A model generated the notes under the pieces. It was not told the origin of the DNA and did not search any database. It saw only the letters and a program-made list of their open reading frames with translations. Positions 5,483 to 19,663 of a DNA stretch of 24,000 nucleotides are shown one piece after another. Numbering within the stretch: position 1 is the stretch's first letter; each line of letters begins with the position of its first letter. The stretch comes from Maliibacterium massiliense. Its GTDB lineage: Bacteria; Bacillota; Clostridia; Christensenellales; Maliibacteriaceae. The DNA is taken from positions 2,380,882 through 2,404,881 of the forward strand of contig LR026983.1 in assembly GCA_900604345.1 (NCBI GenBank), in the 5' to 3' direction. Both the position numbers and the translations under genes were made by a program.

Positions 5483-5511
5483 TTGATAACGCCTGGAAAC
5501 TTTGATATAAT
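5483..5511 (+). promoter_or_regulatory. Sigma-A-type promoter (extended -10) for asp23
   Basis: TTGATA (5483-5488), 17 nt, TGaTATAAT (5503-5511). About 30 nt upstream of the SD GAGGAGG (5529-5535). Confidence 0.7.
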
Positions 5512-5544
5512 AATCCAAAACGGATTATGAGGAGGCCGACACAA

Positions 5545-5964
5545 GTGGCTGAGAATAATGTGACGGAAGTCAAAAAATCTGAACAGAACGGGCAAATCTC
5601 CTTTGCCGATGACGTTATCGCGATCATTGCGGGGCTTGCCACCATTGAAATCGAAGGCGTGGTCGCGATGAGCGGCGGCGTGGCCGACGGCATTGCCGAG
5701 ATGCTGGGCCGCAAAAACCTGACGCGCGGCGTCAAGGTGGAAGTGGGCAACGAGGAGGCTGCCATCGATCTTGCCATCATCGGCGAGTACGGCGCCAAGC
5801 TCCCCGAGGTCTGCTGCAAGGTGCAGGAGAACGTCCGCAAGGCGGTGGAGACCATGACGGGCCTGCACGTGGTGGAGGTCAATATAAGCGTATTGGGCGT
5901 CAACACGGAGAAAAAGCCCAAGGAGCCCGCCGAAGCGCAGCAAAATGCCGGGCGCGTTCGTTAA
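5545..5964 (+). CDS. asp23: Asp23/Gls24-family alkaline shock protein
   Basis: ISFADDVIAIIAGLATIEIEGVVAMSGG...GVKVEVGNEEAAIDLAIIGEYGAKLPEVCCKVQENVRKAVETMTGLHVVEVNISV is a classical Asp23 (DUF322) pattern. GTG 5545 is 9 nt after GAGGAGG. The ORF also has an in-frame ATG at 5527 that overlaps that SD. Confidence 0.85.
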   Translation: MAENNVTEVKKSEQNGQISFADDVIAIIAGLATIEIEGVVAMSGGVADGIAEMLGRKNLTRGVKVEVGNEEAAIDLAIIGEYGAKLPEVCCKVQENVRKAVETMTGLHVVEVNISVLGVNTEKKPKEPAEAQQNAGRVR

Positions 5965-5978
5965 ATGAGGCAAAAAGG

Positions 5979-6008
5979 CCCTCTGATGCTCCATCAGAGG
6001 GTTATTGC
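5979..6008 (+). terminator. Hairpin (terminator or attenuator) between asp23 and the amaP-like gene
   Basis: Perfect 10-bp stem CCCTCTGATG (5979-5988) / CATCAGAGGG (5992-6001), 3-nt loop, followed by TTATTGCT (weak U tract). Confidence 0.5.
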
Positions 6009-6060
6009 TATACAGGGCTTTTAAAAGCTTGCAATACAAGAACTGTGAGGAGGACAAGCT

Positions 6061-6633
6061 ATGAAGTTGGGTTTTGGTCGCCGCCTCTGCCTGGTGGTGC
6101 TGATGCTTGCGTGCATCGCGCTTTCTCTTGCGGCAATTGCGCTGGTTTGGTACGCGCCGCTCTATGATTTGGTGCTGGACTACGCCACGCGCATGGTGAT
6201 TCCCTGGTATGTCGCGGCCATCGTCACGGCAGTGGCGCTGGCGGCGCTTGTGATGGCGTTTGTCCTTCTGTTTATGGGCGCGCGCAAGAAGACGCCCGAG
6301 GATATCCTGGTACGCAGCGACGAGGGTGGCAAGGTCATCATCTCTACCCAGGCGGTATCGGCTTTGGTGCAGAGCGCGGTGAAGCCCATCGCTGAGCTGC
6401 GGGATATGCGCGTGCGCATCCTGCCGCGCGAGCGCAGCGTGGATATTGAGATGAAGGTTATCGTGCGCCCTGAGACGGATATCCCCGCTGTGACGGAGAA
6501 GATGCAGCAGGATATCAGGTCCTATGTCGGCGCGCATACCGGCATCGGCGTGGGCACGGTCAACATCGCGGTGGTGGCGTCGCCGGCGCAGGGTGAGGAA
6601 GTTTCCCTCAGTGCGGCCGCCCGCGTCAGATAA
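6061..6633 (+). CDS. Alkaline shock response membrane anchor protein (AmaP-like)
   Basis: 190 aa with two N-terminal TM helices, then a soluble domain with Asp23-like repeats of charged and hydrophobic residues (VIISTQAVSALVQSAV...VDIEMKVIVRPETDIPAVTEKMQQDIRSYV). SD GAGGAGG upstream. The asp23-adjacent position is typical of AmaP. Confidence 0.6.
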   Translation: MKLGFGRRLCLVVLMLACIALSLAAIALVWYAPLYDLVLDYATRMVIPWYVAAIVTAVALAALVMAFVLLFMGARKKTPEDILVRSDEGGKVIISTQAVSALVQSAVKPIAELRDMRVRILPRERSVDIEMKVIVRPETDIPAVTEKMQQDIRSYVGAHTGIGVGTVNIAVVASPAQGEEVSLSAAARVR

Positions 6634-6645
6634 GGGGGAGAGCGC

Positions 6646-6882
6646 ATGGGCGAAAAGTGGTTGACGTTCTTTCGAGAGAACAAAAGCAAGGTCATCGGCG
6701 CGCTCATCGGCCTTGCGATCGGCATCATCATACTGAGCATTGGTTTCTGGCGCACGCTGTTCCTGGCGCTCTGCGTGGGCGTGGGCTACGCGCTGGGCAT
6801 CGCCTTTACCTCCGAGAGCAACCTGGGGCACGCGCTGCGCAGGATCTTTCACATAAGAAAGAGGAACACATTCGATGAGTAG
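6646..6882 (+). CDS. Small integral membrane protein, DUF2273-like (Asp23 operon partner)
   Basis: 78 aa: FFRENKSKVIGALIGLAIGIIILSIGFWRTLFLALCVGVGYALG, two TM helices. SD GGGGGAG upstream. Usual companion of asp23/amaP. Confidence 0.6.
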   Translation: MGEKWLTFFRENKSKVIGALIGLAIGIIILSIGFWRTLFLALCVGVGYALGIAFTSESNLGHALRRIFHIRKRNTFDE

Positions 6883-7342
6883 AACGATGGCACGGGAGTC
6901 CGCAATGCGTCTTGTATACCAGTGGGCCATGGCAGGCGGCCCTTGGGAGGAAGTGCTCGCCCAGTCCATGGAAGATGTGCGGCTCAACCCGCTGGACTTG
7001 CTCTATGTCAAGGATACCATGGAGGGCGTGCAGGCGTATATCGACCAGATTGACAGCTACATTACCCAGATGAGCCGCTCCTGGCGCATCGAGCGCATGG
7101 CAAAGGTGGACCTCGCCGTGTTGCGGGTGGCTACCTACGAGCTGTGCTTCCGGCAGGATATCCCCGATTCGGTAGCCATCAACGAGGCGGTAGAGCTCTC
7201 CAAGCGCTACAGCGCGCCCGAGGCGTCCGCGTTTGTCAACGGCATTCTCTCCTCGCTGGTCAAAAGCAGGGATGCGGGCGAACTAAAGAGCGCGGCGCAG
7301 ATGCAGCAGGCGTCGCGGGATGCGCAGCAGAAGGAGCAATAA
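6875..7342 (+). CDS. nusB: Transcription antitermination factor NusB
   Basis: MSRTMARESAMRLVYQW...RMAKVDLAVLRVATYELCFRQDIPDSVAINEAVELSKRYSAPEASAFVNGIL is the canonical NusB pattern. Overlaps the preceding gene by 8 nt. Confidence 0.9.
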   Translation: MSRTMARESAMRLVYQWAMAGGPWEEVLAQSMEDVRLNPLDLLYVKDTMEGVQAYIDQIDSYITQMSRSWRIERMAKVDLAVLRVATYELCFRQDIPDSVAINEAVELSKRYSAPEASAFVNGILSSLVKSRDAGELKSAAQMQQASRDAQQKEQ

Positions 7343-7347
7343 CGGCC

Positions 7348-8331
7348 GTGCAATCGATCTTTTTAGGGTTTGATACTAGCTGCTACACCACATCGGTGGC
7401 GGCGGTGGACGCCTCGGGCCAGTGGTGCCGGCAGCAGCGCAAGCTGCTGCCCGTAGCCCGGGGGGAACGCGGCCTGCAGCAGAGTAAAGCCGTGTTTTTG
7501 CATATCGCACAGCTGCCGGATCTCTTCCGGCAGCTTTTGTCCGCTCTTCCGCAGGGCGCGAAGGTACAGGCAGTGTGCGTCTCGTCGCGGCCCCGCCCGC
7601 TGGAGGGTTCCTACATGCCGGTTTTCTTGGCGGGCGTCAGCCATGCACGCATGGTGGCCGACGCGTTGGGCGTGCCGCTGTACGAGACATCGCATCAGGA
7701 GGGGCACCTGCGCGCGGGCCTCTACACAGCCGGTGGGCCGGAGGCGGACGCTTTTCTTGCAATCCATCTGTCGGGCGGCACAAGCGAGCTGCTGCGCGCG
7801 ACGCGCGCGGAGGACGGCGGTTTTTGCATAACGCTTTTGGGCGGTACGCTCGATGCGAGCGCGGGCCAGCTGATCGACCGCGTGGGCGTGGCGCTGGGGC
7901 TGCCCTTTCCGGCGGGGCCGCACCTGGAGAAGCTGGCGCAGGTCTGCGAAAGCGAGCATCCGGACATCCCCGCATCGGTCAAGGGGCTCGACTGCAGCTT
8001 CTCGGGCGCGGAATCCTGCGCGATGCGCATGATCCAATCGGGCGCGCCGCCCGAGGTGGTAGCAAATGCGGCGTTTTCGCTCGTGACGCGCACGCTGGAA
8101 AAGTGGATCACCAATGCGGTGCGGGAGACTGGCCTGCAAGAGGTGCTGCTGGTGGGCGGGGTGTCCTCCAGCGCGCATATACGGGCGCATCTGCGCGCGC
8201 GCCTGCAGAAAAAGGGCGTGCGCGCAAAGCTGTACTTCGCATCGCCCGCGCTCTCCAGCGACAACGCGGCGGGCGTGGCGCTGCTGGGGCGGGACAGGCA
8301 CTTGCAACAAAATACACATGAGGTGAAATGA
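7348..8331 (+). CDS. Kae1/TsaD (glycoprotease, peptidase M22) family protein, divergent
   Basis: GTG 7348 is 11 nt after AAGGAG. N-terminal [13 protein letters not shown] (compare GIETSCDET of TsaD), HQEGH metal motif (compare HMEGH), C-terminal [13 protein letters not shown] and SSDNAAGVA (compare GGVAAN, TDNAAM). The 7144 ORF start would overlap nusB by about 200 nt and is rejected. Confidence 0.7.
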
Positions 8332-8333
8332 TT

Positions 8334-9200
8334 ATGGCGGCAACGATATTGGATGGAAAGGCGATCGCGCAGCGCACGCGGGAGCAGCTTGCGCTGCGCG
8401 TGGCAGACTTCAGGGCGCAGCACGGCTACGCGCCGGGGCTGGTGGTGATCCTGGTGGGGGAGGATCCCGCCTCGCAGGTTTATGTGCGCAACAAGCACCG
8501 CGCCTGCCAGGAGGTGGGCATGCGCTCCATCGTGGAGACGCTTGCGGAAACGACTACACAGGAGGCGCTACTGGCGATGGTGGCGCGCTACAACGCCGAT
8601 GCGGATATCCACGGCATCCTTGTGCAGATGCCGCTGCCCAGGCATATCGACGAAAAGGCCGTGATCAACGCCATCTCGCCGCAAAAGGACGTCGATGGTT
8701 TTCACCCCATGAGCGCGGGCGCGCTGATGGTGGGCGAACAGGGTTTTGTGCCCTGCACGCCGCGGGGTGTCATCACGCTCATTGAGCAAGCTGGCGTGGA
8801 CATCGCGGGCAAACACGCGGTGGTGGTGGGCCGCAGCAACATCGTGGGCAAGCCGGTGGCCATGCTGCTGCTGCAGCGCCACGCCACGGTGACGATCTGC
8901 CATTCGCGCACGCAGGATTTGGGCAGCATTACGCGCCAGGCGGATATCCTGGTGGCGGCGGTGGGCCGGCCCCAGATGATCCGCGGGGATATGATCAAAC
9001 CCGGCGCGGTGGTTATCGATGTGGGCATCAACCGCGTGCCGGGCAGCAAAAAGCTCTACGGCGACGTGGCCTTTGACGAGGCGGTGGAAGTGGCGGGCGC
9101 CATCACGCCCGTGCCCGGCGGGGTGGGGCCCATGACCATCGCCATGCTGCTGCATAACACGCTTGACGCGGCGCTGATGGCCGCGCAGGCGCGCAAGTGA
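8334..9200 (+). CDS. folD: Bifunctional 5,10-methylene-tetrahydrofolate dehydrogenase / methenyl-THF cyclohydrolase FolD
   Basis: [12 protein letters not shown]...[14 protein letters not shown]...[10 protein letters not shown]...GFHP...PCTP...[12 protein letters not shown]...[16 protein letters not shown]. Textbook FolD. An in-frame ATG at 8328 overlaps the upstream stop, but 8334 is better spaced from GAGGTGA. Confidence 0.95.
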
Positions 9201-10417
9201 ACCGCATGAACGAACTGTTTTTTTCCGTATCCCAGCTCAATGAATACGTGCGCTCCATGCTGCAGATGGACCCGGTGCTGCAGCACGTGCTGCTCTCGGG
9301 GGAGATATCCAACTACCGGCGCTACCCATCGGGGCACGCGTATTTTTCGCTGAAGGATCAATCAAGCGCCATCGCCTGCGTGATGTTCAACCAGCAGCTT
9401 TCCCAGCTTGACTTTGCCCCTGCAAACGGCCAGATGGTGGAGGCGGGCGGCAACGTATCGATCTACGTCAAGGAGGGGCGCTACCAGTTCTATGTGCGCG
9501 ACATGCGCCCGGCGGGCGTGGGCGCCCTCTATATGGCGTACGAGGCGCTGAAAAAGAAGCTGGAGGCGCAGGGCCTCTTTGACCAGGCGCGCAAAAAACC
9601 CATCCCGTTTCTGCCCCGGTGCGTGGGCGTGGTCACCAGCGCCCAGGGCGCCGCGGTGCGCGATATCATCCGTGTGTGCACGCGCCGCTTCCCTGGCATC
9701 GCGCTGCGCGTGATGCCCGTGCCCGTGCAGGGCGCGCAGGCCGCGGCAGATATTGCCCGGGGCATACGCGATTTGGATACCTGGGGCGGGTGCGACGTGA
9801 TGATCGTGGGGCGCGGCGGCGGATCGCTGGAGGATCTGTGGGCGTTCAACACGGAGGCTGTGGCCCTGGCCATCGCGCAATGCAACACGCCTGTGATCTC
9901 TGCGGTGGGGCATGAAACCGATACCACCATCGCGGACTTGGTGGCGGACCTGCGCGCGGCCACGCCGTCGGCGGCGGCGGAGCAGGCGGTGCCCATGAAG
10001 GACGAGCTGCTGGAATCCATTGACAGCGCCGCGGCGCATATGGGCCGGCTGGTGCACCATACAATAACGCTGCAAGGGACCAAGCTGCGCGCGCTTCTGG
10101 CAAGCCGCGCGCTAGCCTCGCCGGCGGGGTTGGTGGCGGCGCGCGCCTCCGAGCTCTCAACCCTTGCCGCGCGCATGGATGGGGTAGTGCAGAAAAAACT
10201 GGAGGGAGCGTCGCACGCGCTTGCGCTTTCCAGCGCCAAGCTTGCCGCGCTCAACCCCGATACGGTGCTTGCGCGCGGCTTTGCGCGGGTGCAGGACGCG
10301 CAGAGCGGACGCACCATCGTCTCGGCGGCCCAGGCGACGAAAGAAACGACCCTGCGCATTTTTTGGCAGGACGGCGCGCGCACGGCGCGCGTGACGGATG
10401 AGGAGGGCATGCACTAA
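9197..10417 (+). CDS. xseA: Exodeoxyribonuclease VII large subunit XseA
   Basis: [14 protein letters not shown]...[20 protein letters not shown] (OB fold), [61 protein letters not shown] 9197 overlaps the folD stop. An alternative ATG is at 9206. Confidence 0.95.
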
Positions 10418-10657
10418 ATGGCGACGCGTGCAAAGGCAAAGACGTTTGAGGAGATGCTCCAGCAGTTGCAGGGCATCGTCGGGCAGCTGGAGAAGGGCGA
10501 GGTGACGCTGGAGCAGTCCGTCGCGCTTTATGAAGAGGGTATGGCGTGCGCCCAGGCGATGCAAAAGCTGCTGGAGGATGCAAAAGGACGGGTGGCCGTG
10601 CTGGAGAAACAGCAGGAAACGTGGGCGGAGCTGCCCATGCCGGAGCGTGTGGAATGA
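10418..10657 (+). CDS. xseB: Exodeoxyribonuclease VII small subunit XseB
   Basis: 79 aa: FEEMLQQLQGIVGQLEKGEVTLEQSVALYEEGMACAQAMQKLLEDA. Typical XseB, immediately after xseA. Confidence 0.9.
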   Translation: MATRAKAKTFEEMLQQLQGIVGQLEKGEVTLEQSVALYEEGMACAQAMQKLLEDAKGRVAVLEKQQETWAELPMPERVE

Positions 10658-11538
10658 GCCTGTTTGCGCAGCAGTATCAAACATACCTGGACAGGACGAA
10701 CCAGGCGCTCAGCCAGGCGCTCTGCGCGCGTAGCGACATCCCATCGCCCCTGCGCGAGGCGATGGGCTACAGCCTGGAGGCGGGAGGCAAGCGCATCCGG
10801 CCGGTGCTGCTGCTGGCCTGCTGCGATATCGCGGGGGGCGATACCGCGCGGGCGCTGCCCTTTGCCTGCGCGGTGGAGATGATCCACACCTACTCGCTGA
10901 TTCATGACGATCTGCCCTGCATGGACAACGACGATTTGCGCCGCGGCAGGCCCACCTGCCACAAGGTGTACGGCGAGGGCATGGCGCTGCTTGCGGGCGA
11001 CGGACTGCTCAACTTTGCCTACGAACACATGAGCGACGCGGTGGCGGCGGGCGTGCCGGGTGCAGCGCAGGCGCTGCGGGAGATCGCCTGCGGCGCGGGC
11101 GTGGGCGGCATGATCGCGGGCCAGTGCCTGGATTTGGCAAACGAGGGACGGGCAATGGACGGGGCCATGCTGCGCCGCATCCACAATGGCAAAACCGCTG
11201 CGCTGTTGACGGCGGCGTGCACGGCGGGCATGTGCCTGGCGGGCGCGGATGCGCGGCGCCTGGAAGCGGCGCGCGCTTACGGCAGGGCATTGGGCCTGGC
11301 CTTCCAGATCACGGACGATGTACTCGATGTGGCGGGCGACGCCGCGCATTTGGGCAAGCACACCGGCAAGGACGCCCAGAGCGGCAAGTTGACCTTTGTA
11401 AGCGTCTACGGCCTGGAGAAGGCGCGCGCGCTTGCGCGCGAGGCGGTGCAGGAGGCCGTCGGTGCGCTGCGCCCCTTCGGTGGGGACGCAATGTTCCTGT
11501 GCCAGATGGCGCAGTTCGTACTGGGGCGCGATCACTGA
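10654..11538 (+). CDS. ispA: (2E,6E)-farnesyl diphosphate synthase (short-chain polyprenyl synthase)
   Basis: ATG 10654 overlaps the xseB stop (ATGA). First Asp-rich motif LIHDDLPCMDNDDLRRG, second motif FQITDDVLD, and GKRIRP. The longer 10546 start lies inside xseB. Confidence 0.9.
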   Translation: MSLFAQQYQTYLDRTNQALSQALCARSDIPSPLREAMGYSLEAGGKRIRPVLLLACCDIAGGDTARALPFACAVEMIHTYSLIHDDLPCMDNDDLRRGRPTCHKVYGEGMALLAGDGLLNFAYEHMSDAVAAGVPGAAQALREIACGAGVGGMIAGQCLDLANEGRAMDGAMLRRIHNGKTAALLTAACTAGMCLAGADARRLEAARAYGRALGLAFQITDDVLDVAGDAAHLGKHTGKDAQSGKLTFVSVYGLEKARALAREAVQEAVGALRPFGGDAMFLCQMAQFVLGRDH

Positions 11539-11618
11539 TATCGTAAAGTAAAAGCGTGCGCGCACATCATTCTTACCGTTTCGTTCGCTGCTGCTAAAGC
11601 TACTAAAGGAGAATGCAC

Positions 11619-12068
11619 ATGTTGCCTGAGTGGATCAATCCTGTGTTGGTGCCGTCGCTGGTGGCCTGGTTTATCGCGCAGGTTTCCAAAATGATCGTCA
11701 TCGGCGTCAAGGAAAAGCGCATGGATTTTACCCGCATGGTGGGCTCTGGCGGCATGCCCTCCAGCCACTCGGCCACGGTGGTGGCCATGGCGGTCGCCTG
11801 CGGGCAGGTGGCGGGCTATAGCTCGGTGTCCTTCGGCATCGCCGCGGTGCTGGCCATCGTGGTGATGTACGACGCCTCGGGCGTGCGCCAGGCCGCGGGC
11901 AAGCAGGCCAAGGTGCTCAACGAGATCGTGGACACCATGTTTGAGAACGGCAATCTGTACGTCGCGCCGGAAAAATTAAAGGAATTGCTGGGGCATACGC
12001 GCGTGGAGGTGTTTGTGGGCGCGCTGTTGGGCGCGCTGGTCGCCCTGGTGATGACCTGGGGCCGCTGA
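11619..12068 (+). CDS. Divergent PAP2 / DUF212 (YuiD-like) membrane protein
   Basis: INPVLVPSLVAWFIAQVSKMI...GGMPSSHSATVVAMAVA...VMYDASGVRQAAGKQA...LKELLGHTRVEVFVGALLG is the acid-phosphatase/vanadium-haloperoxidase-related DUF212 pattern. ATG 11619 is 7 nt after AAAGGAG. ATG 11613 is too close to the SD. Confidence 0.75.
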   Translation: MLPEWINPVLVPSLVAWFIAQVSKMIVIGVKEKRMDFTRMVGSGGMPSSHSATVVAMAVACGQVAGYSSVSFGIAAVLAIVVMYDASGVRQAAGKQAKVLNEIVDTMFENGNLYVAPEKLKELLGHTRVEVFVGALLGALVALVMTWGR

Positions 12069-12094
12069 CAGCGCCGCAGGCGCGCCGGCGGCAT

Positions 12095-12123
12095 TTGTAT
12101 TGCCGCGCGGAGTATGGTAGTAT
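12095..12123 (+). promoter_or_regulatory. Sigma-A-like promoter (extended -10) upstream of the large non-coding locus
   Basis: TTGTAT (12095-12100), 17 nt, TGgTAGTAT (12115-12123). This would start transcription near 12129-12131, where the terminal helix of the RNA begins. Confidence 0.5.
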
Positions 12124-12128
12124 AGAGC

Positions 12129-12710
12129 AAGGTGGTACAGTATTCTAGTCGGCAAAACCGAGCTCTGAAGGCGGGCCTAAAAATCCGTCAAGGGCATATC
12201 GATGAAGTCCCTGGTGCTGGCATCTGACGCCCAGTCGGGGGTTGGTGCTGGGGGTTAAGGAAGAAGGGCGCCCCACAATGGCATGTGGATGATGACCCAG
12301 CTTCCGTGGAGGCCCAAGAGGGTGGCTTTTGTAAAAAGACTGCTACTGCTTGGTGTAAAACCTGTAATGCGGTGTCAAGCTGTGTACAGCGTAGCCTGCC
12401 TTGCGTGGCACTGGGGGATCACGGAACTACACCTATCATGTCTATGGCCTATGACGCTAGGTGATCGCTGTGAGAAACCTTTGCTGCAAAAGAGGCTAGG
12501 GGCCGGTTGCGTCGTCGAGGAAAGCTCCTAGACTGGCGTGCAGTTCGGGGATTATAGTGTGGTCTAAGTGGCAATCTAGTCAGACGTTTGAGTGATCGCG
12601 TCTCGCATGTGTTTCAAGGGAAACCGCTCCATCCGGCGACGGGGAGTACGCTGCGGGGAAATCCTACTAGACCTTAAGCCGCAAGGTTAACCTGAACTGC
12701 CACCACCTTT
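12129..12710 (+). ncRNA. ole: Large structured non-coding RNA, OLE (ornate, large, extremophilic) RNA-like
   Basis: 647-nt ORF-poor gap in a tightly packed operon with a local GC drop (29/60 G+C counted in 12541-12600). Terminal helix AAGGTGGTACAG (12129-12140) with CTG-CC-ACCACCTT (12697-12709). Hairpins at 12273-12288, 12379-12390, 12417-12466, 12582-12603 and 12671-12687. Long-range complementarity between 12227-12236 and 12531-12539. The synteny ispA-[RNA]-4TM DxxxD protein-dxs-tlyA matches the known OLE/oapA context. Boundaries are approximate and no covariance model was run. Confidence 0.7.
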
Positions 12711-12715
12711 TTATT

Positions 12716-13306
12716 ATGGAAAAAATACTGTTGATGGAGTGTGTTTGCACGTTGGCGCGTGACAAAAATGCAGGCCGGAGCAAAGCGGCACGATATTGGG
12801 TGCTCAAAACGGCGGTCATCACCTTTTTCTTGGCGATAGGTATGAGCTTGATTGGGGAGACGGTTCTCCAGCGCTTGAGCATACCCGTGGCCGTTTTTGT
12901 TTTACTTTTAATTATCGGCGTGGGCATCCTTTTTGACATCATCGGTATCGCCATCACCGCCACCACGGAGGCGCCCTTAAGCGCCATGGCCTCCCGCCGC
13001 ATCCGCGGCGCCAAACAGGCGGTGCGCCTGGTGAAAAATGCCGATATCATGGCCAACTTCTGCAACGACGTGGTGGGGGATATCTGCGGCATCGTATCGG
13101 GCGCGGCGGGCGCGGCGATATCCGGCCGGCTGATCCTGGGCGCAGATTCCACCACGGCGCTGATCGTGGGCATCGTGATAAGCGCGCTCATCGCGGTGAT
13201 GACCGTCTCGGGCAAGGCCATGGGCAAGCGCGTGGCCATGCGCTACAGCGCCGATATCGTGCTTGCCACCGGCAAGGTCATGAGCGTCTTTGCGCGCCGC
13301 GGATAA
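12716..13306 (+). CDS. oapA: OLE-associated protein A-like small 4-TM membrane protein with DxxxD motif
   Basis: 196 aa with four predicted TM helices (about residues 28-48, 56-82, 112-137, 146-166). DVVGD (D118-D122, nt 13067-13081) lies in TM3. Immediately downstream of the structured RNA and upstream of dxs, as described for oapA. No obvious SD before ATG 12716. An alternative ATG is at 12734. Confidence 0.7.
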   Translation: MEKILLMECVCTLARDKNAGRSKAARYWVLKTAVITFFLAIGMSLIGETVLQRLSIPVAVFVLLLIIGVGILFDIIGIAITATTEAPLSAMASRRIRGAKQAVRLVKNADIMANFCNDVVGDICGIVSGAAGAAISGRLILGADSTTALIVGIVISALIAVMTVSGKAMGKRVAMRYSADIVLATGKVMSVFARRG

Positions 13307-13332
13307 ACCTACCGCTAATTGGGAGCGTCTGC

Positions 13333-15210
13333 ATGAGTATACTGGAGAACATTGAACGGCCGAGCGACCTTCGGCGGTATAACGACACACAGCTGGCGCA
13401 GCTCTGTCAGGAGATCCGCGCCTTTATCATCCACTCCGTGTCCAAAACAGGGGGGCATTTGGCGTCCAATTTGGGCGCGGTGGAGCTGACGGTGGCGCTG
13501 CACGCGAGCTTTGAGGCGCCCAAAGATAAGATCGTATGGGACGTGGGCCACCAGAGCTACACCCATAAGATACTGACAGGCCGCAGGGACCGCATGGATA
13601 CCCTGCGCGCCAAGGGCGGGCTTTCCGGCTTCCCGCGGCCCAACGAGAGCGCATACGACACCTTTGCCACGGGGCATGCGAGCACCTCCATCTCCGCGGC
13701 GCTGGGCATGGCCCGCGCGCGCGATCTGTTGGGCAAAGACTTCAACGTGGTGGCGGTGCTGGGCGACGGCGCCTTTGGCGGCGGCCTGGTGTTTGAGGCG
13801 CTCAACGACGCGGGCAGCGGCGCCTCCCGCCTGATCGTGGTGCTCAACGACAACGATATGTCCATCGCGCCCAACGTGGGGGCGATGACCCGCTCGCTTG
13901 CGCGCATGCGCGTTAACCCCAAGTACATGGGCTTGAAGCGCTGGACCAAGAAAAAGGTGGAGGACCGTCCCGGCCTGGAGAGCTTTATGGATCGCTTCAA
14001 GGGCACGATCAAGTACGCGATGATGCCCGGTGCGTGGACGTTCTTTGAACAGCTGGATTTCTTCTACATCGGCCCGGTGGACGGCCACAACATCACACGG
14101 CTGAAGGAGGCCTTCTCCCAGGCGAAAAAGGTGGAGCAGCAGCCGGTGCTGGTGCATGTCATCACCCAAAAGGGACGCGGGTATACGGCGGCGGAGGAAA
14201 ACCCCAGCCGCTACCACGGCGTGCCCTCCTTTCAGGTAGAGACGGGCGCGGCAAAAAAGCAGGCCGCGCCCGGCGATCGTACGTTCCCGCAGAGCCTGGG
14301 GGACGCGCTGGTCAAGCTTGCGAAGGAAGATAGGCGCCTGGTGGCAATCACCGCCGCGATGCCCGATGCGACGGGCGTGAGCGCCTTTGCGCAGGCGTTC
14401 CCTGCGCGCGCGTTTAACGTGGGTATTGCCGAGGAGCACGCCGTCACCATGGCGGCGGGCATGGCGGCGCAGGGGCTGCGGCCGGTGGTGCCCATTTACT
14501 CCACTTTTTTGCAGCGCGCCTACGACGAGATCATCCACGACGTGTGCCTGCAGAACCTGCCAGTGATACTGGGGGTGGACCACGCGGGCATCGTGGGGGA
14601 GGATGGAGAGACACACCAGGGCATCTTTGATATCTCGTATCTGTACCACATCCCCAATATGACGATCCTCTCGCCCGCAAGTCCGCAGGAGATGGAGGGC
14701 GCGCTGCGCTACGCGCTGCATCTGGGCACGCCGGTAGCGATCCGATACCCCAAGGGAGGCTCCCCGCTTGTGCGCGCCACGCCCGCCGCAAGCCTTTTTG
14801 ACTGCGGATGGGAGCGCCTGCAGACGGGCGCGGATGTGGCGATATTGGCGGTGGGAACCATGGCCTATCAGGCGCTGGAGACGGCAAAGCTGCTCAAGGC
14901 GCAGGGCATCTCGTGCGCCGTCTATTCCGCGCGCCTGGTCAAGCCCATGGATGAGGCTGCGTTGCGCGCGGCCTGCGCGTGTCCGCTTGTGTGCACGCTG
15001 GAGGACAACATGTACACGGGTGGCTTTGGCTGGGCGGTGCGTGACAAGCTCTGCGCGCTGGGGCGCGCAGACGTGGCGCTGGAAATCATCGCCGCGCCGG
15101 AGGCGTTTTTGGCGCACGCCACGCGCGCGCAGTGGCTCGATATGCTGGGCCTGGTGCCGGAGAAACTCGCGCCCCGCATCGCGGCGCGCTGGAAGCAGGT
15201 GAAGGCGTGA
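13333..15210 (+). CDS. dxs: 1-deoxy-D-xylulose-5-phosphate synthase
   Basis: 625 aa: GGHLASNLGAVELTVALH, WDVGHQSYTHKILTGR, GHASTSISAALGMA, VLGDGAFGGGLVFEALN (ThDP motif), GIAEEHAVTMAAGMA. Canonical Dxs. Confidence 0.95.
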   Translation: MSILENIERPSDLRRYNDTQLAQLCQEIRAFIIHSVSKTGGHLASNLGAVELTVALHASFEAPKDKIVWDVGHQSYTHKILTGRRDRMDTLRAKGGLSGFPRPNESAYDTFATGHASTSISAALGMARARDLLGKDFNVVAVLGDGAFGGGLVFEALNDAGSGASRLIVVLNDNDMSIAPNVGAMTRSLARMRVNPKYMGLKRWTKKKVEDRPGLESFMDRFKGTIKYAMMPGAWTFFEQLDFFYIGPVDGHNITRLKEAFSQAKKVEQQPVLVHVITQKGRGYTAAEENPSRYHGVPSFQVETGAAKKQAAPGDRTFPQSLGDALVKLAKEDRRLVAITAAMPDATGVSAFAQAFPARAFNVGIAEEHAVTMAAGMAAQGLRPVVPIYSTFLQRAYDEIIHDVCLQNLPVILGVDHAGIVGEDGETHQGIFDISYLYHIPNMTILSPASPQEMEGALRYALHLGTPVAIRYPKGGSPLVRATPAASLFDCGWERLQTGADVAILAVGTMAYQALETAKLLKAQGISCAVYSARLVKPMDEAALRAACACPLVCTLEDNMYTGGFGWAVRDKLCALGRADVALEIIAAPEAFLAHATRAQWLDMLGLVPEKLAPRIAARWKQVKA

Positions 15211-16040
15211 CAAAGCAGCGACTGGATACGCGTATGGTGGCGCTGGGGCTTGCCGAGAGCCGGCAGAAGGCGCAGGCAATCCTGATGACGGGCGCGGTAT
15301 GCGTCAACGGGCAGCCGTGTACCAAACCGGCGGCGCAGGTGGGCGATGCGGACCAAATCACGGTGACAGAGCATCTGCGCTATGTCAGCCGCGGCGGGCT
15401 GAAGCTGGAAAGGGCGCTAGAGGTCTTTCCCATCGACCTGGCGGGCAGGGTGGCGCTGGATATCGGCGCCTCCACAGGCGGGTTTACCGACTGCATGCTG
15501 CAAAATGGCGCCGCGCACGTCTACGCGGTGGACGTGGGCTACGGGCAGCTGGACTGGAAGCTGCGCAGCGACGCGCGGGTAAGTGTGCTGGAGCGCACCA
15601 ACGCGCGCTACATCACGCCCGATCTGTTTGAAGGGCCGCCCACGTTTGGCAGCATCGATGCCTCATTCATTTCGCTGAAGCTGCTGCTGCCACCGCTGCG
15701 CGATTGTTTGGGGGAAGCGGGCGAGATCGTGGCGCTGATCAAACCGCAGTTTGAGGCGGGGCGCGCTCAGGTAGGCAAAAAGGGCGTGGTGCGCGATGCG
15801 GCGGTGCATCAGCAGGTCATCGAGGAGATGCTCGCCTTTGCTCGCGGGCCGCTGGGCATGCACGTGATGGGGCTGGATCATTCGCCCATCACCGGGCCGC
15901 AGGGCAACATCGAGTTTTTGCTCTACCTGCAAAAGACGCTGGCGCAGGGCGCGGCCGCGCCTGACATCGACGCGCGTGCGGTGGTTGCCCGTGCGCATGA
16001 CGCGCATCATAAAACGCCAAAAACGACACGGCAGGATTGA
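15207..16040 (+). CDS. tlyA: TlyA-family rRNA (cytidine-2'-O)-methyltransferase (S4 + FtsJ domains)
   Basis: GTG 15207 overlaps the dxs stop (GTGA). KQRLDTRMVALGLAESRQKAQAILMTGAVCVNG (S4), VSRGGLKLERAL, LDIGASTGGFTDCMLQNGAAHVYAVDVGYGQLDWKLR (SAM binding). The longer 15132 start lies inside dxs. Confidence 0.9.
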   Translation: MTKQRLDTRMVALGLAESRQKAQAILMTGAVCVNGQPCTKPAAQVGDADQITVTEHLRYVSRGGLKLERALEVFPIDLAGRVALDIGASTGGFTDCMLQNGAAHVYAVDVGYGQLDWKLRSDARVSVLERTNARYITPDLFEGPPTFGSIDASFISLKLLLPPLRDCLGEAGEIVALIKPQFEAGRAQVGKKGVVRDAAVHQQVIEEMLAFARGPLGMHVMGLDHSPITGPQGNIEFLLYLQKTLAQGAAAPDIDARAVVARAHDAHHKTPKTTRQD

Positions 16041-16065: not shown

Positions 16066-16103
16066 AAGAGCGTATGTTTTTTGTAGACGGGGAGGGCGCG
16101 GCC

Positions 16104-16964
16104 ATGGTCATCGGCATTTACACCTATGCATCTACATCGGCGTCCTACCAGACGCTGCACGCGTTGCTTGACGCGCTGCAGTCGCGCGGCCTCCAGGTGC
16201 TGCTGCAGCAGCAGCTTGCGGATATCGCCCGGCGCCCCCAGCTGGCTACGGATGAGCAAGCGCTCTTTGCGCAAAGCGAGATGCTGCTCGTGCTGGGAGG
16301 GGACGGCACGCTGCTTGGCGCCGCGCGCAAGGCGGCGGAGGCGGGCCTGCCCATTTTAGGCGTAAACATGGGGCGGCTGGGCTTTTTGAGCGAAATTGAA
16401 TTTGAGGAGCTGGGCGGCGCGCTCGACCAGGTCCTTTCGGGCGACTACACCATTGAAAAGCGCATGATGCTCAGCTGCTATATCGATGAAGTGTATAAAG
16501 GCATTGCCCTCAACGACGTGGTGATCTCGCGCAACTCCATCTCGCGCATCATCACCGTGGGGGTAGCCATCAACGACCAGCCGGTCAACGCCTACCGCGC
16601 AGACGGCCTTATCGTGGCCACGCCCACGGGCTCCACGGCGTACTCCCTCTCGGCAGGCGGACCGATTTTGAGCCCCGCGCTGGAGTGCCTGCTGATCTCG
16701 CCCATCTGTCCGCACACCCTGCACAGCAGAAGCGTGGTGGTGGGCCCCAAGGAGGAGATCACCCTCACCATCAGCGATCCGCGCGACGAGACCATTTTAA
16801 CCCTCGACGGGCAGATGGCGTTCCCCCTGCGCAACGGTATGCGCGTCAAGGTGCGCCGCGCGCGCGCCTACGCGCGCTTTGTGCGGCTGAACCGCAAAAA
16901 TTTCTACCATGTGCTCAACCACAAACTCTCGGATTGGAACGGCGATTCCGACAGCGCGCAGTAG
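16104..16964 (+). CDS. nadK: NAD(+) kinase
   Basis: LVLGGDGTLLGAAR, GVNMGRLGFLSE, NDVVI, DGLIVATPTGSTAYSLSAGGPI. ATG 16104 is about 8 nt after GGGGAGGG. The ORF opens at 16074. Confidence 0.9.
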   Translation: MVIGIYTYASTSASYQTLHALLDALQSRGLQVLLQQQLADIARRPQLATDEQALFAQSEMLLVLGGDGTLLGAARKAAEAGLPILGVNMGRLGFLSEIEFEELGGALDQVLSGDYTIEKRMMLSCYIDEVYKGIALNDVVISRNSISRIITVGVAINDQPVNAYRADGLIVATPTGSTAYSLSAGGPILSPALECLLISPICPHTLHSRSVVVGPKEEITLTISDPRDETILTLDGQMAFPLRNGMRVKVRRARAYARFVRLNRKNFYHVLNHKLSDWNGDSDSAQ

Positions 16965-17007
16965 CCGCCCATCCTTTTTTGCATCCTGCCAAGGAGGAGC
17001 TTGCTTC

Positions 17008-17457
17008 ATGAAATCAAACCGTCACACCATGATCTTGGACATCATCCGCAAGATGGACATCGCCACCCAGGAGGAGCTGGCCGAGCAGCTGCGCCAGCGG
17101 GGGGTAGTGGCCACCCAGGCGACCATCTCACGCGATATCAAGGAGCTGCACCTCATCAAGGTGCTGGGCAGCAACGGCATCTATAAATATGCCATGCTGG
17201 AGCAGAACGACGGCACGATTGACGCGCGGCTGATGCGCCTGTTCAACGAATCGGTGCTGACGGTGACGTCGGCCAACAACCTGATTGTGCTGGGCACCAT
17301 CTCCGGATCGGCAAACGCCGCGGCCAAGGCGATCGATTCGCTCGCGTGGGATGAGATCATCGGCACGCTCGCCGGGGACGACACCATCCTTGTCATCGTG
17401 GATAATAACGAGGATGCGGAGGCTGTGGTGGCGCGCTTCCGGCAAATGATGCAATAG
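17008..17457 (+). CDS. argR: Arginine repressor ArgR/AhrC
   Basis: ATG 17008 is 10 nt after AAGGAGG. MKSNRHTMILDIIRKMDIATQEELAEQLRQRGVVATQATISRDIKELHLIKV (winged helix) and C-terminal GTLAGDDTILVIV (arginine-binding core). 149 aa. Confidence 0.9.
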   Translation: MKSNRHTMILDIIRKMDIATQEELAEQLRQRGVVATQATISRDIKELHLIKVLGSNGIYKYAMLEQNDGTIDARLMRLFNESVLTVTSANNLIVLGTISGSANAAAKAIDSLAWDEIIGTLAGDDTILVIVDNNEDAEAVVARFRQMMQ

Positions 17458-17486: not shown

Positions 17487-19202
17487 ATGCTGCAACATCT
17501 ATCCATTCGTCATATCGCGCTGATCGACGCGCTGGAGCTATCCTTTGCGCCGGGCTTCAATGTGCTTACGGGCGAGACGGGCGCGGGCAAATCGATCATT
17601 GTGGATTCCATGAAGCTGGCATTGGGCGGCCGCGCGGACCGCGATTTGATCTCCGCCGGTGAAGCCAGGGCGTACGTGGAGGCCACTTTTTTTGTGCCGC
17701 CCGATGCGCCGGTGCGCGCGCTGCTGGAGGAGGAAGGGCTGCTGGAGACGGAGGAGACGTCGCTGGTGCTGGCGCGCGAGCTGACAACCTCGGGCAAGAA
17801 CACCTGCCGCATCGGCGGGGTGCGCGTGACGCTGGATCTGCTCTCTCAGGTGGCACGCCAGCTGGTGGACATCTACGGCCAGCATGAGCACCAGTCGCTG
17901 CTCAATCCGGCCAGCCATCTGGGCTTTTTGGACTGCCTTGCAAGCGGCAAGGTTGCCGCGCTGCGCGGGCAGGTGCAGGCGCTCTGCGCCCAGATTGCAT
18001 CTGTAAACAGGGAAATGTCGCAGGGCTTCGGCTCGGAGCAGGACCGCGCGCAGAAGATGGACATGCTGCGCTTTCAGATCGACGAGATCGAGCAGGCGCA
18101 GCTGCGTGTGGGCGAGGAGCAGGAGCTGAAAGAACAGCGCGCGCTGATGCAGGCCTCCGAGACCATTGCCGCACAGCTTTCAGGCGCGTACAGCGCGCTC
18201 TACGAAAGCGAGATGGGCCCGTCTGCCATGGACAGCGTGATGCAGGCGGCCCAGGCGGTGGGGCGCGTGGCGCACTACCAGCAGGCGTACGAGCAGATAC
18301 GCCAGCGCCTGGACGATGCCTACTACGCGCTGGAGGATACGGCGCATACCCTGCGCGATCTTGCGGGCGAGGTGTTTTTTGATCCGCAGGAGCTGCAGCG
18401 CATCGAGCAGCGGCTGGACGATCTGTATAAGCTCAAGCGCAAGTATGGCGCCGATGAGCAGGCGGTGCTGGATTTTCAGCAGCAGGCACAGAAGCAGCTG
18501 GACATGCTCGAGCACGCGCAGGAGCGCATGGAAACGCTTTCGCAGCGGCGCGAGGCGCTGCTGGACGCATATTATGAGAAGGCGTGCGCGCTCTCGCAGG
18601 CGCGCCGCGCCTTCGCCAAGCAGCTGGAAGGCCAGGTCATGGAACAGCTGCGCGACTTGGGCATGGAGAAATGCCGCTTTGCCGTGACGTTTGATGCGCT
18701 CCCCACGCGCGAGGCATGCCAAGCGTGCGTGCATGCCGAGGGTATGGACACGGCGGCGTTTTTCATCTCGCCCAACCCGGGCATGCCGCTGCGTCCTCTG
18801 GCCAAGATCATCTCCGGCGGCGAGCTGTCGCGCGTGATGCTGGCGCTCAAGACGATTTCCGCAGCCAGAGAGGGCGTGCCCTGTATGATCTTTGACGAGA
18901 TCGATACGGGTATTGGCGGCCAGATGGCGGTGGTGCTCTCCAAAAAGATGGCGCGCATCGCGCGCAGCCACCAGGTGCTTTGCGTGACGCATCTGGCGCC
19001 TGTGGCGGTGATGGCTGACGCGCATCTGCACGTGCAGAAGTCCGGTCAGCAGGAGACGCACACGCAGGTGGCGCGCCTTGCGGAGGATGCGCGGGCTGCG
19101 GAGGTGGCGCGCATGCTGGGCGGCAGTGTAGAGGACGCGCTCTCGCTTGAGCACGCCCGCCAGATGCTTGCGCAGGCGCGTGCATTTAAGCAGACGCTAT
19201 AA
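17487..19202 (+). CDS. recN: DNA repair protein RecN
   Basis: 571 aa: MLQHLSIRHIALIDALELSFAPGFNVLTGETGAGKSII (Walker A), long coiled-coil centre, ISGGELSRVMLALK signature, MIFDEIDTGIGG (Walker B). Confidence 0.95.
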   Translation: MLQHLSIRHIALIDALELSFAPGFNVLTGETGAGKSIIVDSMKLALGGRADRDLISAGEARAYVEATFFVPPDAPVRALLEEEGLLETEETSLVLARELTTSGKNTCRIGGVRVTLDLLSQVARQLVDIYGQHEHQSLLNPASHLGFLDCLASGKVAALRGQVQALCAQIASVNREMSQGFGSEQDRAQKMDMLRFQIDEIEQAQLRVGEEQELKEQRALMQASETIAAQLSGAYSALYESEMGPSAMDSVMQAAQAVGRVAHYQQAYEQIRQRLDDAYYALEDTAHTLRDLAGEVFFDPQELQRIEQRLDDLYKLKRKYGADEQAVLDFQQQAQKQLDMLEHAQERMETLSQRREALLDAYYEKACALSQARRAFAKQLEGQVMEQLRDLGMEKCRFAVTFDALPTREACQACVHAEGMDTAAFFISPNPGMPLRPLAKIISGGELSRVMLALKTISAAREGVPCMIFDEIDTGIGGQMAVVLSKKMARIARSHQVLCVTHLAPVAVMADAHLHVQKSGQQETHTQVARLAEDARAAEVARMLGGSVEDALSLEHARQMLAQARAFKQTL

Positions 19203-19219: not shown

Positions 19220-19663
19220 ATGCAGGCGTACACCCATCAGGTGCACTACTACGAGACCGACCAGATGGCGGTTGTCCACCATTCCAACTACATCCGGTGG
19301 TTTGAGGAGGCGCGCATCGATTACATGCGCCAGCTGCACGCGGACTATCAGGCGCTGGAGGCCATGGACTGCTACAGCCCGGTGCTTTCGGTGCGGTGCC
19401 AGTATAAAAAGGGCGTCGCCTTCGGCCAGCGTGTGGATATTCGATTGACGCTCGTCGAGATGACGCAGGTGAAATACCGCTTTACGTACCGCGTGGTGGA
19501 TCACGAGACGGGCGCGCTGCATGCGCTGGGCGAGACTACGCACTGCTTTGTCAACGGCAAAGGACGCGTTATCTCGCTGAAAAAACAGCAGCCCGCGCTC
19601 TTTGCGCGCTTTTTGCAGCAGGTGGGGGTGACGACGGGCGAGGCGGAGGGCGAAAACTTCTAA
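19220..19663 (+). CDS. Acyl-CoA thioesterase, 4HBT (YbgC/hotdog) family
   Basis: YTHQVHYYETDQMAVVHHSNYIRWFEEARIDYM is the typical hotdog-fold thioesterase N-terminus with catalytic Asp. 147 aa. Confidence 0.75.
   Translation: MQAYTHQVHYYETDQMAVVHHSNYIRWFEEARIDYMRQLHADYQALEAMDCYSPVLSVRCQYKKGVAFGQRVDIRLTLVEMTQVKYRFTYRVVDHETGALHALGETTHCFVNGKGRVISLKKQQPALFARFLQQVGVTTGEAEGENF

What the first reader, a model, noticed from the sequence alone, without database searches (positions are those of the whole stretch)
12069..12715. A ~580-nt ornately structured non-coding RNA locus (OLE-RNA-like) embedded between isoprenoid genes
Seen in sequence. (1) Neighbouring genes mostly overlap or are separated by fewer than 30 nt, but here there is a 647-nt gap. 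Its only ORF (12283-12531, 82 aa) has no SD and is Cys/Trp-rich. (2) GC drops locally: I counted 29/60 in 12541-12600, against roughly two thirds in flanking coding lines. (3) A sigma-A-like promoter, TTGTAT-17-TGgTAGTAT (12095-12123), points into the gap. (4) AAGGTGGTACAG (12129-12140) is complementary to CTG/ACCACCTT (12697-12709). That is 8 bp plus 3 bp around a small internal loop, closing about 580 nt. (5) Local hairpins occur at 12273-12288 (CCACA/TGTGG), 12379-12390 (GCTG-TGTA-CAGC), 12417-12422 with 12461-12466 (GATCAC/GTGATC), 12582-12603 (AGACG/CGTCT) and 12671-12687 (ACCTT/AAGGT). ACGCCCAGTC (12227-12236) also pairs long-range with GACTGGCGT (12531-12539). Established knowledge: OLE RNAs are about 600-nt RNAs of anaerobic or extremophilic Firmicutes, typically found between ispA and dxs and directly upstream of oapA, which encodes a 4-TM protein. 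That is the arrangement here. Inference: this is an OLE-class ribonucleoprotein locus in a high-GC spore-former. The biochemical function of this RNA class is still poorly understood. If the OLE model does not fit, this would be a new large RNA occupying the same genomic niche.
Basis: partly seen in the sequence, partly recalled or inferred. Interest (0 to 1): 0.9.

Follow-up and report, generated by a model that had tools for sequence, protein, structure and literature searches.

The report
A typical OLE RNA gene

Summary
The Rfam OLE model (RF01071) matches window 12116-12722 (+) end to end at 459 bits (gathering score 50, E 6e-132) and is the only Rfam hit in the window. The neighbours are the standard ole cluster: xseA, xseB, ispA, DUF212, OLE, oapA, dxs, tlyA, nadK, argR, recN, spoIVB, spo0A. 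Twelve related loci also carry OLE directly upstream of an oapA homolog. Covariation in a 10-sequence alignment supports the Rfam fold (83% of cells paired, 90 pairs changed on both sides, 0 of 500 shuffles as high). The proposed promoter aligns with TTGATA-17-TGcTATACT in the closest relatives and matches the known proximal OLE promoter. The 82-aa ORF is not conserved. The closest OLE found is about 73% identical, from Christensenellales-type MAGs. Verdict: a known RNA class in a routine form, of low interest.

The parts
12095..12123 (+). Candidate sigma-A promoter of ole: -35 TTGTAT (12095-12100), 17-nt spacer, extended -10 TGgTAGTAT (12115-12123). The inferred start is near 12129-12131, at the first base of P1.
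   Evidence: Read directly. It aligns with TTGATA-17-TGcTATACT in L002 and L005, and with TATAAT-like boxes in the other relatives. The generic scan did not list it. [quoted passage not shown] Activity here is inferred.
12116..12722 (+). OLE RNA gene as matched by Rfam RF01071. The structured RNA proper runs about 12129-12709 (581 nt).
   Evidence: 459 bits, E 5.9e-132, model 1-616/616; 138 of the 153 projected Rfam pairs are standard pairs in this sequence; covariation in 10 sequences.
12129..12136 (+). 5' strand of the terminal helix (AAGGUGGU), which I read as the published P1. It pairs with 12702-12709.
   Evidence: helix 1: 95.8% paired, 5 of 8 pairs changed on both sides. This helix is not in the Rfam consensus structure.
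12702..12709 (+). 3' strand of the terminal helix (ACCACCUU), followed by U5AUU and the oapA start codon.
12138..12148 (+). 5' strand of a P3-type helix: CAG (12138-40), a UAU bulge, then UCUAG (12144-48). It pairs with CUAGACUG at 12528-12535.
   Evidence: 100% paired. The pair 12144-12532 switches from U-A to C-G in 4 of 9 sequences. Calling it P3 is my inference from the description in PMC12265935.
12528..12535 (+). 3' strand of the P3-type helix (CUAGACUG).
   Evidence: One search compared.
12157..12165 (+). 5' strand of a P3.1-type helix. It pairs with 12500-12507, with G12160 bulged and one A-C mismatch.
   Evidence: 93.3% paired, 7 of 8 pairs changed on both sides, 0 of 500 shuffles reach the score.
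12500..12507 (+). 3' strand of the P3.1-type helix.
12170..12189 (+). P4 hairpin with the conserved A-rich loop CCUAAAAA. This loop is a dimerisation contact in the cryo-EM structures.
   Evidence: helix 2, 100% paired. Role taken from PMC12265935.
12208..12254 (+). P5/P5.1 long hairpin with loop GCCCA.
   Evidence: helix 3: 94.5% paired, 9 compensatory pairs.
12259..12305 (+). P6/P6.1 with loop AAUGGCAU. The AUG of the spurious 82-aa ORF lies in this loop.
   Evidence: (helices 4 and 5).
12313..12389 (+). Two variable hairpins (P7-type at 12313-12354, P8-type at 12362-12389).
   Evidence: helices 6-8. In the P7-type hairpin 5 of 17 pairs are non-standard in this sequence.
12398..12496 (+). 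Long P9-type arm with the palindromic loop UGGCCU (12445-12450).
   Evidence: helices 10-13. The loop's role in dimerisation is taken from PMC12265935.
12539..12701 (+). 3' domain ('domain 2'). Closing helix 12539-49/12691-701, nested helices 12558-62/12679-83 and 12575-80/12666-71, the P13 hairpin 12582-12603 (GUGA loop 12592-95, UU bulge 12587-88), helix 12604-12/12648-55, and the P14.1 hairpin 12626-12647 (GCGA loop 12636-39).
   Evidence: helices 15-20: the closing helix is 96% paired with 10 of 11 pairs compensatory. The OapB site (a GNRA loop plus a bulge in P13) is taken from PMC7936274.
12716..13306 (+). oapA, the OLE-associated membrane protein (196 aa if M1 is the start; the exact start codon is uncertain).
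   Evidence: Weak CNNM hit, 24.8 bits against a cutoff of 28.4. About four hydrophobic segments and a basic loop SRRIRGAKQAVRLVK. 38-53% identity to genes that follow OLE in other genomes. Invariant motifs FDxIGIA, CNDVxGD and TVxGKAxG.
10654..11538 (+). ispA (farnesyl diphosphate synthase), upstream neighbour in the ole cluster.
   Evidence: NF045485, 328 bits. The gene call in L001 gives 294 aa.
11613..12068 (+). DUF212 (divergent PAP2 family) gene directly upstream of ole.
   Evidence: 161.8 bits. It is in the same position in L004, L006 and L009.
13333..15210 (+). [quoted passage not shown]
   Evidence: TIGR00204, 727 bits. [quoted passage not shown]

Best explanation
Window 12116-12722 (+) encodes a full-length OLE (ornate, large, extremophilic) RNA, with its partner gene oapA directly downstream, inside the standard ole gene cluster of a spore-forming, high-GC member of the Clostridia.

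Likely mechanism. The steps below were shown in Halalkalibacterium halodurans or Clostridium and are inferred here.
1. The RNA is made from its own proximal sigma-A promoter (TTGTAT-17-TGgTAGTAT, start near 12129), and probably also by read-through from ispA/DUF212. No terminator separates ole from oapA, so the two are co-transcribed.
2. The roughly 580-nt RNA folds with the terminal helix joining its two ends. A P3/P3.1-type helix closes the 5' domain (P4-P9), and a second helix closes the 3' domain (P13 and P14.1 among others).
3. It binds the four-helix membrane protein OapA, which brings it to the membrane, and it dimerises through the conserved P4, P5.1/P6.1 and P9 loops.
4. OapB binds the GNRA-capped P13 hairpin and OapC binds a k-turn near P5.
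5. The resulting RNP helps the cell cope with stress (short-chain alcohols, cold, excess Mg2+, poor carbon sources). The biochemical activity of the RNA is not known for any member of the class.
For: - Covariance-model match: 459 bits against a gathering score of 50, E 5.9e-132, over the full model.
- 138 of the 153 projected consensus pairs are standard pairs in this sequence.
- In a 10-sequence alignment the Rfam structure is 82.9% paired, with 90 pairs changed on both sides. No shuffle out of 500 reaches this, and the slid controls give 39-48%.
- Three helices that are absent from the Rfam annotation but expected from the literature also covary: the terminal helix, a P3-type helix and a P3.1-type helix.
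- Every related locus with enough upstream DNA has OLE directly before an oapA homolog.
- The OapA candidate has about four hydrophobic segments, a basic loop and a CNNM-like transmembrane region. This matches the published description of OapA (PMC12265935).
- The gene neighbourhood matches the published ole cluster (PMC12265935; PMC10898510).
- The promoter aligns with those of the closest relatives, and its position matches the experimentally active H. halodurans promoter, which lies just before P1 (PMC3413148).
- The GUGA and GCGA tetraloops and the P13 bulge needed for OapB binding are present (PMC7936274).
Against: - There is no direct evidence that this RNA is expressed, stable, membrane-bound or protein-bound in this organism.
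- The single-sequence folding energy is not exceptional (z = -1.29).
- The generic promoter scan did not call the proposed promoter.
- The sequence departs from the consensus in small ways: the small hairpin at model positions 424-435 is missing, the P13 bulge is 2 nt rather than 1, and the P7-type stem has 5 non-standard pairs.
- The rest of the genome is not available, so the presence of oapB and oapC is unknown.
Confidence: 0.97

Rival explanations
1. The gap encodes a small Cys/Trp-rich protein (ORF 12283-12531, 82 aa) rather than, or in addition to, an RNA.
For: The ORF exists and is the only + strand ORF of at least 60 aa in the gap.
Against: Its ATG is the AUG of the conserved P6.1 loop AAUGGCAUG. 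In all nine relatives the same frame closes after 1-39 codons. It has no NCBIfam match and no Shine-Dalgarno sequence at the right distance. The pattern of conservation is base-pair covariation, not codon periodicity.
Confidence: 0.01
2. The element is mainly a cis-acting leader (a very long structured 5' UTR) that controls expression of oapA-dxs, not a free-standing RNA.
For: No intrinsic terminator lies between the RNA and oapA. The oapA start codon is 6 nt after the terminal helix, with no visible Shine-Dalgarno sequence. So oapA translation could depend on the state of the RNA's 3' end.
Against: In H. halodurans OLE gives a single, very stable and abundant product band on Northern blots, binds OapA, OapB and OapC, and localises to membranes (PMC3413148; PMC12265935). 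A family conserved over about 600 nt with dimerisation loops is not explained by a leader function. The two roles do not exclude each other.
Confidence: 0.05
3. The locus is a decaying, non-functional OLE remnant.
For: It has the second-lowest score among the twelve distinct full-length OLE matches found here (459 bits, range 459-556; L011 scores 462). It lacks one small hairpin and has several non-standard pairs in the P7-type and P9-type stems.
Against: The match covers the full model. All highly conserved loops and joining regions are intact. 90% of consensus pairs are standard. The terminal, P3-type and P3.1-type helices are kept through compensatory changes. oapA is intact with every invariant residue. 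The missing hairpin is also absent or degenerate in relatives. The lower score is expected from the unusual GC content (0.54, against 0.40-0.45 for most relatives).
Confidence: 0.02

Closest known systems
OLE RNA (Rfam RF01071), 'full-length' type of Fernando and Breaker 2024; reference member from Halalkalibacterium halodurans
   Same: - Full-length covariance-model match.
- Length of about 580-607 nt.
- The same helices and the same conserved loops.
- oapA directly downstream, and the same gene cluster (xseA/B, ispA, dxs, tlyA, nadK, argR, recN, spoIVB, spo0A).
- A proximal promoter placed just before the terminal helix (PMC3413148).
   Different: - Higher GC (0.54).
- The small hairpin at model positions 424-435 is deleted.
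- A 2-nt rather than 1-nt bulge in P13.
- One mismatch and one bulge in the P3.1-type helix.
- A DUF212 gene between ispA and ole.
None of these touches a defining feature.
OLE RNAs of Christensenellales-type MAGs (L002, L005, L013)
   Same: These are the closest sequences found: OLE 73% identical and OapA 48-53% identical. They share the block GGGGATTATAGTGTGGTCT and the promoter layout TTGATA-17-TGcTATACT.
   Different: Those loci have no DUF212 before ole and no dxs after oapA; tlyA follows directly. In gene order the window resembles Anaerophilus, Marinisporobacter and a Clostridiaceae MAG (L004, L006, L009) instead.
Clostridium acetobutylicum and C. botulinum OLE RNAs (cryo-EM dimers; Kretsch et al. 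2025, PMC12286853)
   Same: The elements reported as dimer contacts are all present in the window with consensus sequence: the P4 A-rich loop, the P5.1 and P6.1 loops, and the palindromic P9 loop.
   Different: No structure or oligomeric state is known for this sequence. Dimerisation here is inferred.
MpfA/CNNM-family Mg2+ transport proteins (relatives of OapA)
   Same: The OapA candidate gives a weak hit to the CNNM transmembrane domain. OapA is described as distantly related to MpfA in that region (PMC12265935).
   Different: OapA lacks the CBS and CorC/HlyC domains. The hit is below the Pfam gathering score (24.8 against 28.4 bits).

Membership tests
OLE RNA (RF01071) | Significant full-length match to the family covariance model | tested here: met
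   459 bits against a gathering score of 50, E 5.9e-132, model 1-616/616, not truncated.
OLE RNA (RF01071) | Length of about 600 nt | tested here: met
   The Rfam match is 607 nt. From the start of the terminal helix to its end is 581 nt.
OLE RNA (RF01071) | Complex secondary structure maintained by covariation | tested here: met
   138 of 153 consensus pairs are standard in this sequence; 82.9% paired across 10 sequences, 90 pairs with changes on both sides, 0 of 500 shuffles as high. Searches cover the P3-type and P3.1-type helices. Caveat: only 10 sequences, aligned with MAFFT.
OLE RNA (RF01071) | Blocks of highly conserved nucleotides (P4 loop CUAAAAAUC, AUCGAUGAAGU, P5.1 loop GCCCA, P6.1 loop AAUGGCAUG, GUAGCCUGCCUUG, CAAAAGAGGCUA, GGAAA-CUCCUAGACUG, GGGAAACC, GGGAAAUCC) | tested here: met
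   The alignment shows these blocks matching the consensus. One search lists them as invariant columns.
OLE RNA (RF01071) | oapA immediately downstream | tested here: met
   A 196-aa membrane-protein gene starts at 12716. Its homologs follow OLE in L002-L014.
OLE RNA (RF01071) | GNRA tetraloop and bulge in P13 (OapB site), and a second GNRA loop on P14.1 | tested here: met
   GUGA at 12592-95, with U12587 and U12588 bulged. GCGA at 12636-39. Criteria from PMC7936274. The bulge is 2 nt here, against 1 nt in the consensus.
OLE RNA (RF01071) | Sequence able to form the k-turn near P5 that OapC binds | tested here: inconclusive
   The joining regions that flank P5 match the consensus (AUCGAUGAAGU and GUUAAGG). 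I did not map the k-turn pairs explicitly, and its geometry cannot be tested here (PMC9723947).
OLE RNA (RF01071) | Host is a member of Bacillota, typically an anaerobe or extremophile | tested here: met
   spoIIIAA-AH, spoIVB, spo0A and spoIIM are in the window. The nearest relatives are Christensenellales and Clostridia MAGs. Whether the host is an anaerobe was not testable.
OLE RNA (RF01071) | Abundant, stable RNA that localises to the membrane in an RNP with OapA, OapB and OapC | not testable with these tools
   This needs RNA-seq, a Northern blot, pull-downs or imaging. oapB and oapC normally lie elsewhere in the genome, and only 24 kb is available.
OapA | Four predicted transmembrane helices with a cluster of basic residues on a loop | tested here: met
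   hydrophobic segments at about 27-52, 56-85, 118-141 and 146-168. The loop 83-117 holds 6 Lys/Arg (SRRIRGAKQAVRLVK). This is a simple hydropathy scan, not a dedicated predictor. Criterion from PMC12265935.
OapA | Distant similarity to the CNNM/MpfA transmembrane domain, without CBS or CorC domains | tested here: met
   PF01595 at 24.8 bits (E 2e-5, below the gathering score of 28.4) and no other domain. One search gives the published relationship.

The most novel reading that the evidence does not exclude
The evidence does not exclude that this lineage's small departures matter functionally. These are the loss of the small hairpin between the P3-type helix and the 3' domain, the 2-nt P13 bulge, and the recurrent DUF212/PAP2-like phosphatase gene wedged between ispA and ole (also seen in Anaerophilus, Marinisporobacter and a Clostridiaceae MAG). 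One reading is a subtype of the ole cluster in which the OLE RNP is coupled to polyprenyl-phosphate metabolism. That would give a concrete biochemical lead for a class whose function is unknown.
Probability: 0.07. Interest if true: 0.45.

Novelty: already known. Interest (0 to 1): 0.15.

Why it matters
OLE RNA is among the largest and best conserved bacterial non-coding RNAs whose biochemical function is still unknown. Recent work suggests it dimerises and may span the membrane, so every OLE locus belongs to an interesting class. This copy adds little. A standard Rfam scan finds it at once, its context and partner gene are the usual ones, and 2,822 Bacillota representatives have already been catalogued (PMC11332333). 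Its modest value is as a diverged, high-GC sequence, about 73% identical to the closest OLE found here. It adds covariation information for the terminal, P3-type and P3.1-type helices, which the Rfam consensus structure does not annotate. The check also shows that the first-stage reader can recognise a known RNA class from raw sequence.

Tried and rejected
1. Coding reading of the 82-aa ORF. Rejected: the frame is not conserved in nine relatives and there is no family match.
2. Rejected: it has no change on both sides, it overlaps the strongly covarying P5.1 stem, and GACUG has a better partner in the 5' CAG/UCUAG segment, with a U-A to C-G swap.
3. Rejected: low pairing across relatives, and they overlap Rfam helices.
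4. My first register for the P3.1-type helix (12156-60/12504-08 plus 12163-65/12499-501) was replaced by the register that fits the relatives.
5. Thermodynamic test. It does not discriminate: z = -1.29 on the + strand and -0.46 on the - strand.
6. Generic promoter and terminator scan. It lists neither the proposed promoter nor any terminator after OLE.
7. Organism identification. The exact OapA sequence is found only on one 6.4-kb Logan metagenome contig. The metagenome scan with a clade-specific block returned only two loci, both of the Christensenellales type.
8. Block et al. 2011 (PMC3552494) was not held, and I did not obtain Puerta-Fernandez et al. 2006. The statements on P1 and on four transmembrane helices are therefore cited from later papers.
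9. A search for papers combining OLE RNA with ispA/dxs returned only unrelated isoprenoid-engineering papers.

Full report
**Observation.** The gap between the DUF212 gene (ends at 12068) and the next gene (starts at 12716) is 647 nt. Neighbouring genes overlap or are at most 74 nt apart. Its only + strand ORF of at least 60 aa is 12283-12531 (82 aa, 5 Cys and 5 Trp). GC is 0.55 in the gap and 29/60 in 12541-12600, against 0.59-0.68 in the flanking genes and 0.62 for the window.

**Identity.** A scan of the whole window against Rfam 15 gives one hit above a gathering score. It is OLE (RF01071) at 12116-12722 on the + strand: 459 bits against 50, E 5.9e-132, model positions 1-616 of 616, not truncated. 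When the model's consensus pairs are projected onto the sequence, 138 of 153 are standard pairs.

**Context.** Pfam and NCBIfam scans place the following genes on the + strand:

| Gene or family | Coordinates |
|---|---|
| spoIIIAA-AH | 94-5370 |
| two asp23 genes | 5527-6633 |
| nusB | 6875-7342 |
| TsaD-like gene | 7144-8331 |
| folD | 8328-9200 |
| xseA | 9197-10417 |
| xseB | 10418-10657 |
| ispA | about 10654-11538 |
| DUF212 (divergent PAP2) | 11613-12068 |
| OLE RNA | 12116-12722 |
| 196-aa membrane protein (oapA) | 12716-13306 |
| dxs | 13333-15210 |
| tlyA-like methyltransferase | about 15210-16040 |
| nadK | 16074-16964 |
| argR | ORF 16909-17457 (domain match from residue 34) |
| recN | 17487-19202 |
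| thioesterase | 19220-19663 |
| spoIVB | 19920-21290 |
| spo0A | 21386-22177 |
| spoIIM | 22220-22876 |

This is the published ole cluster. It is linked in the literature to isoprenoid biosynthesis, DNA repair, translation, central metabolism and sporulation (PMC12265935). [quoted passage not shown]

**The partner protein.** The 196-aa product has about four hydrophobic segments and a basic loop, SRRIRGAKQAVRLVK. It gives a weak hit to the CNNM transmembrane domain (24.8 bits). This fits the description of OapA as a four-helix membrane protein with a basic cytoplasmic cluster, distantly related to MpfA in the CNNM region. A genome scan with this protein found eleven loci with 38-53% identical homologs. 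All ten with any upstream DNA carry an Rfam OLE hit directly before that gene, at 264-556 bits (the two lowest are cut off by the locus start). So do two metagenome loci. The homologs share the invariant motifs FDxIGIA, CNDVxGD and TVxGKAxG, and the window protein has them all.

I aligned the window's RNA with nine relatives (A1) and counted pairs.
- The Rfam structure is 82.9% paired, with 90 pairs changed on both sides. No shuffle out of 500 reaches this, and slid controls give 39-48%.
Examples are CGGUGGUG/CACCACCG in L002 and AGGAUGGA/UCCAUCCU in L012. The Rfam consensus structure does not annotate it. [quoted passage not shown]
- The other proposals fail. The CAG/CTG extension uses bases that belong to the covarying helix 12539-49/12691-701. 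The GCTG/CAGC, GATCAC/GTGATC and ACCTT/AAGGT hairpins are poorly kept. The long-range pairing with GACTGGCGT has no change on both sides.
- CUAGACUG (12528-35) instead pairs with CAG (12138-40) plus UCUAG (12144-48). This is 100% paired, with a U-A to C-G swap in four sequences.
- Next to it, 12157-65 pairs with 12500-07: 93% paired, 7 of 8 pairs compensatory.
- Together these two helices match the description of P3/P3.1, the helix that closes domain 1 and is proposed to cross the membrane. That naming is my inference, because the figures are not held.

**Promoter and ends.** TTGTAT-17-TGgTAGTAT aligns with TTGATA-17-TGcTATACT in L002 and L005 and with TATAAT-like boxes in the other relatives. 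A generic scan misses it because the -35 matches only 3 of 6. A start near 12129-12131 would put the 5' end at the first base of the terminal helix, as in H. halodurans, where the proximal promoter raises expression more than 100-fold. No intrinsic terminator follows the RNA. The oapA ATG lies 6 nt after the terminal helix, behind a U-rich run and with no visible Shine-Dalgarno sequence, so co-transcription is likely and the true start codon is uncertain.

**Protein-binding and dimerisation elements.** The window keeps the following:
- the GUGA loop and a bulge on P13, and the GCGA loop on P14.1, which form the OapB sites (PMC7936274);
- the consensus nucleotides flanking P5 that form the OapC k-turn (PMC9723947);
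- the P4 A-rich loop, the P5.1 and P6.1 loops and the palindromic P9 loop, which are the dimer contacts.

**Rivals.**
- The 82-aa ORF starts at the AUG of the conserved P6.1 loop, and its frame closes after 1-39 codons in all nine relatives. Coding is rejected.
- A purely cis-acting leader function cannot be excluded for the 3' end, but it does not explain the family's properties.
- A decaying remnant is unlikely, because all conserved blocks and oapA are intact.
- Folding energy alone is uninformative (z = -1.29).

**How this copy differs.**
- It has high GC for the family (0.54, against 0.40-0.45 for most relatives).
- It lacks the small hairpin at model positions 424-435, which is also absent in L007 and degenerate in L002 and L005.
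- Its P13 bulge is 2 nt.
- Its P7-type stem has 5 non-standard pairs.
- The closest OLE found is about 73% identical, from Christensenellales-type MAGs. In gene order (ispA-DUF212-OLE-oapA-dxs) the window matches Anaerophilus, Marinisporobacter and a Clostridiaceae MAG instead.
- The exact OapA sequence is on record only on one metagenome contig, so the organism is probably uncultured.

**Verdict.** This is a bona fide, full-length member of a well described RNA class, in its usual setting. The class remains enigmatic, but this locus brings no new feature, so interest is low.

Noticed in passing
window 11613-12068; L004 1865-2266; L006 1826-2227; L009 1859-2233: A DUF212 (divergent PAP2 family) gene sits between ispA and ole in the window and in three distant Clostridia. 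It is absent from the Christensenellales-type loci, which also lack dxs after oapA. I could not tell whether DUF212 is a recognised ole-associated gene; the term does not occur in PMC11332333.
   Followed up: partly
window 12702-12760: The oapA ATG (12716) lies 6 nt after the 3' strand of the terminal helix. It is preceded by UUUUUAUU with no Shine-Dalgarno sequence, and no terminator separates ole from oapA. Candidate starts are M1, L6, M7 and L13, and homolog conservation begins around residue 14. Translation of oapA may depend on the state of the RNA's 3' end.
   Followed up: partly
window 12138-12165 with 12500-12535: Two covarying helices (P3-type and P3.1-type), together with the terminal helix, are missing from the Rfam RF01071 consensus structure line, which marks these positions as unpaired.
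   Followed up: yes
window 12536-12539: The small hairpin at Rfam model positions 424-435 is deleted in this OLE. It is also absent in L007 and degenerate in L002 and L005.
   Followed up: partly
window 5473-6987 (-), 13315-15279 (-), 21452-23257 (-): These long minus-strand ORFs (504, 654 and 601 aa) overlap well supported + strand genes (asp23, dxs, spo0A/spoIIM). The two that were scanned have no Pfam match; the 654-aa ORF opposite dxs was not scanned. They look like antisense shadow ORFs typical of 62% GC DNA.
   Followed up: partly
window 7144-8331: A 395-aa ORF between nusB and folD matches the TsaD/Kae1-like fold over residues 119-379 only (95.8 bits). As listed, it overlaps the end of nusB by about 200 nt, so its true start is probably later.
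   Followed up: no
window 94-5370: An apparently complete spoIIIA operon lies upstream of the ole cluster, with AA, AB, AC, AD, AE, AF and AH recognised. A 212-aa ORF with no Pfam match sits where AG would be (4051-4689).
   Followed up: no
window 19220-19663: A 4HBT-family thioesterase gene is inserted between recN and spoIVB.
   Followed up: no
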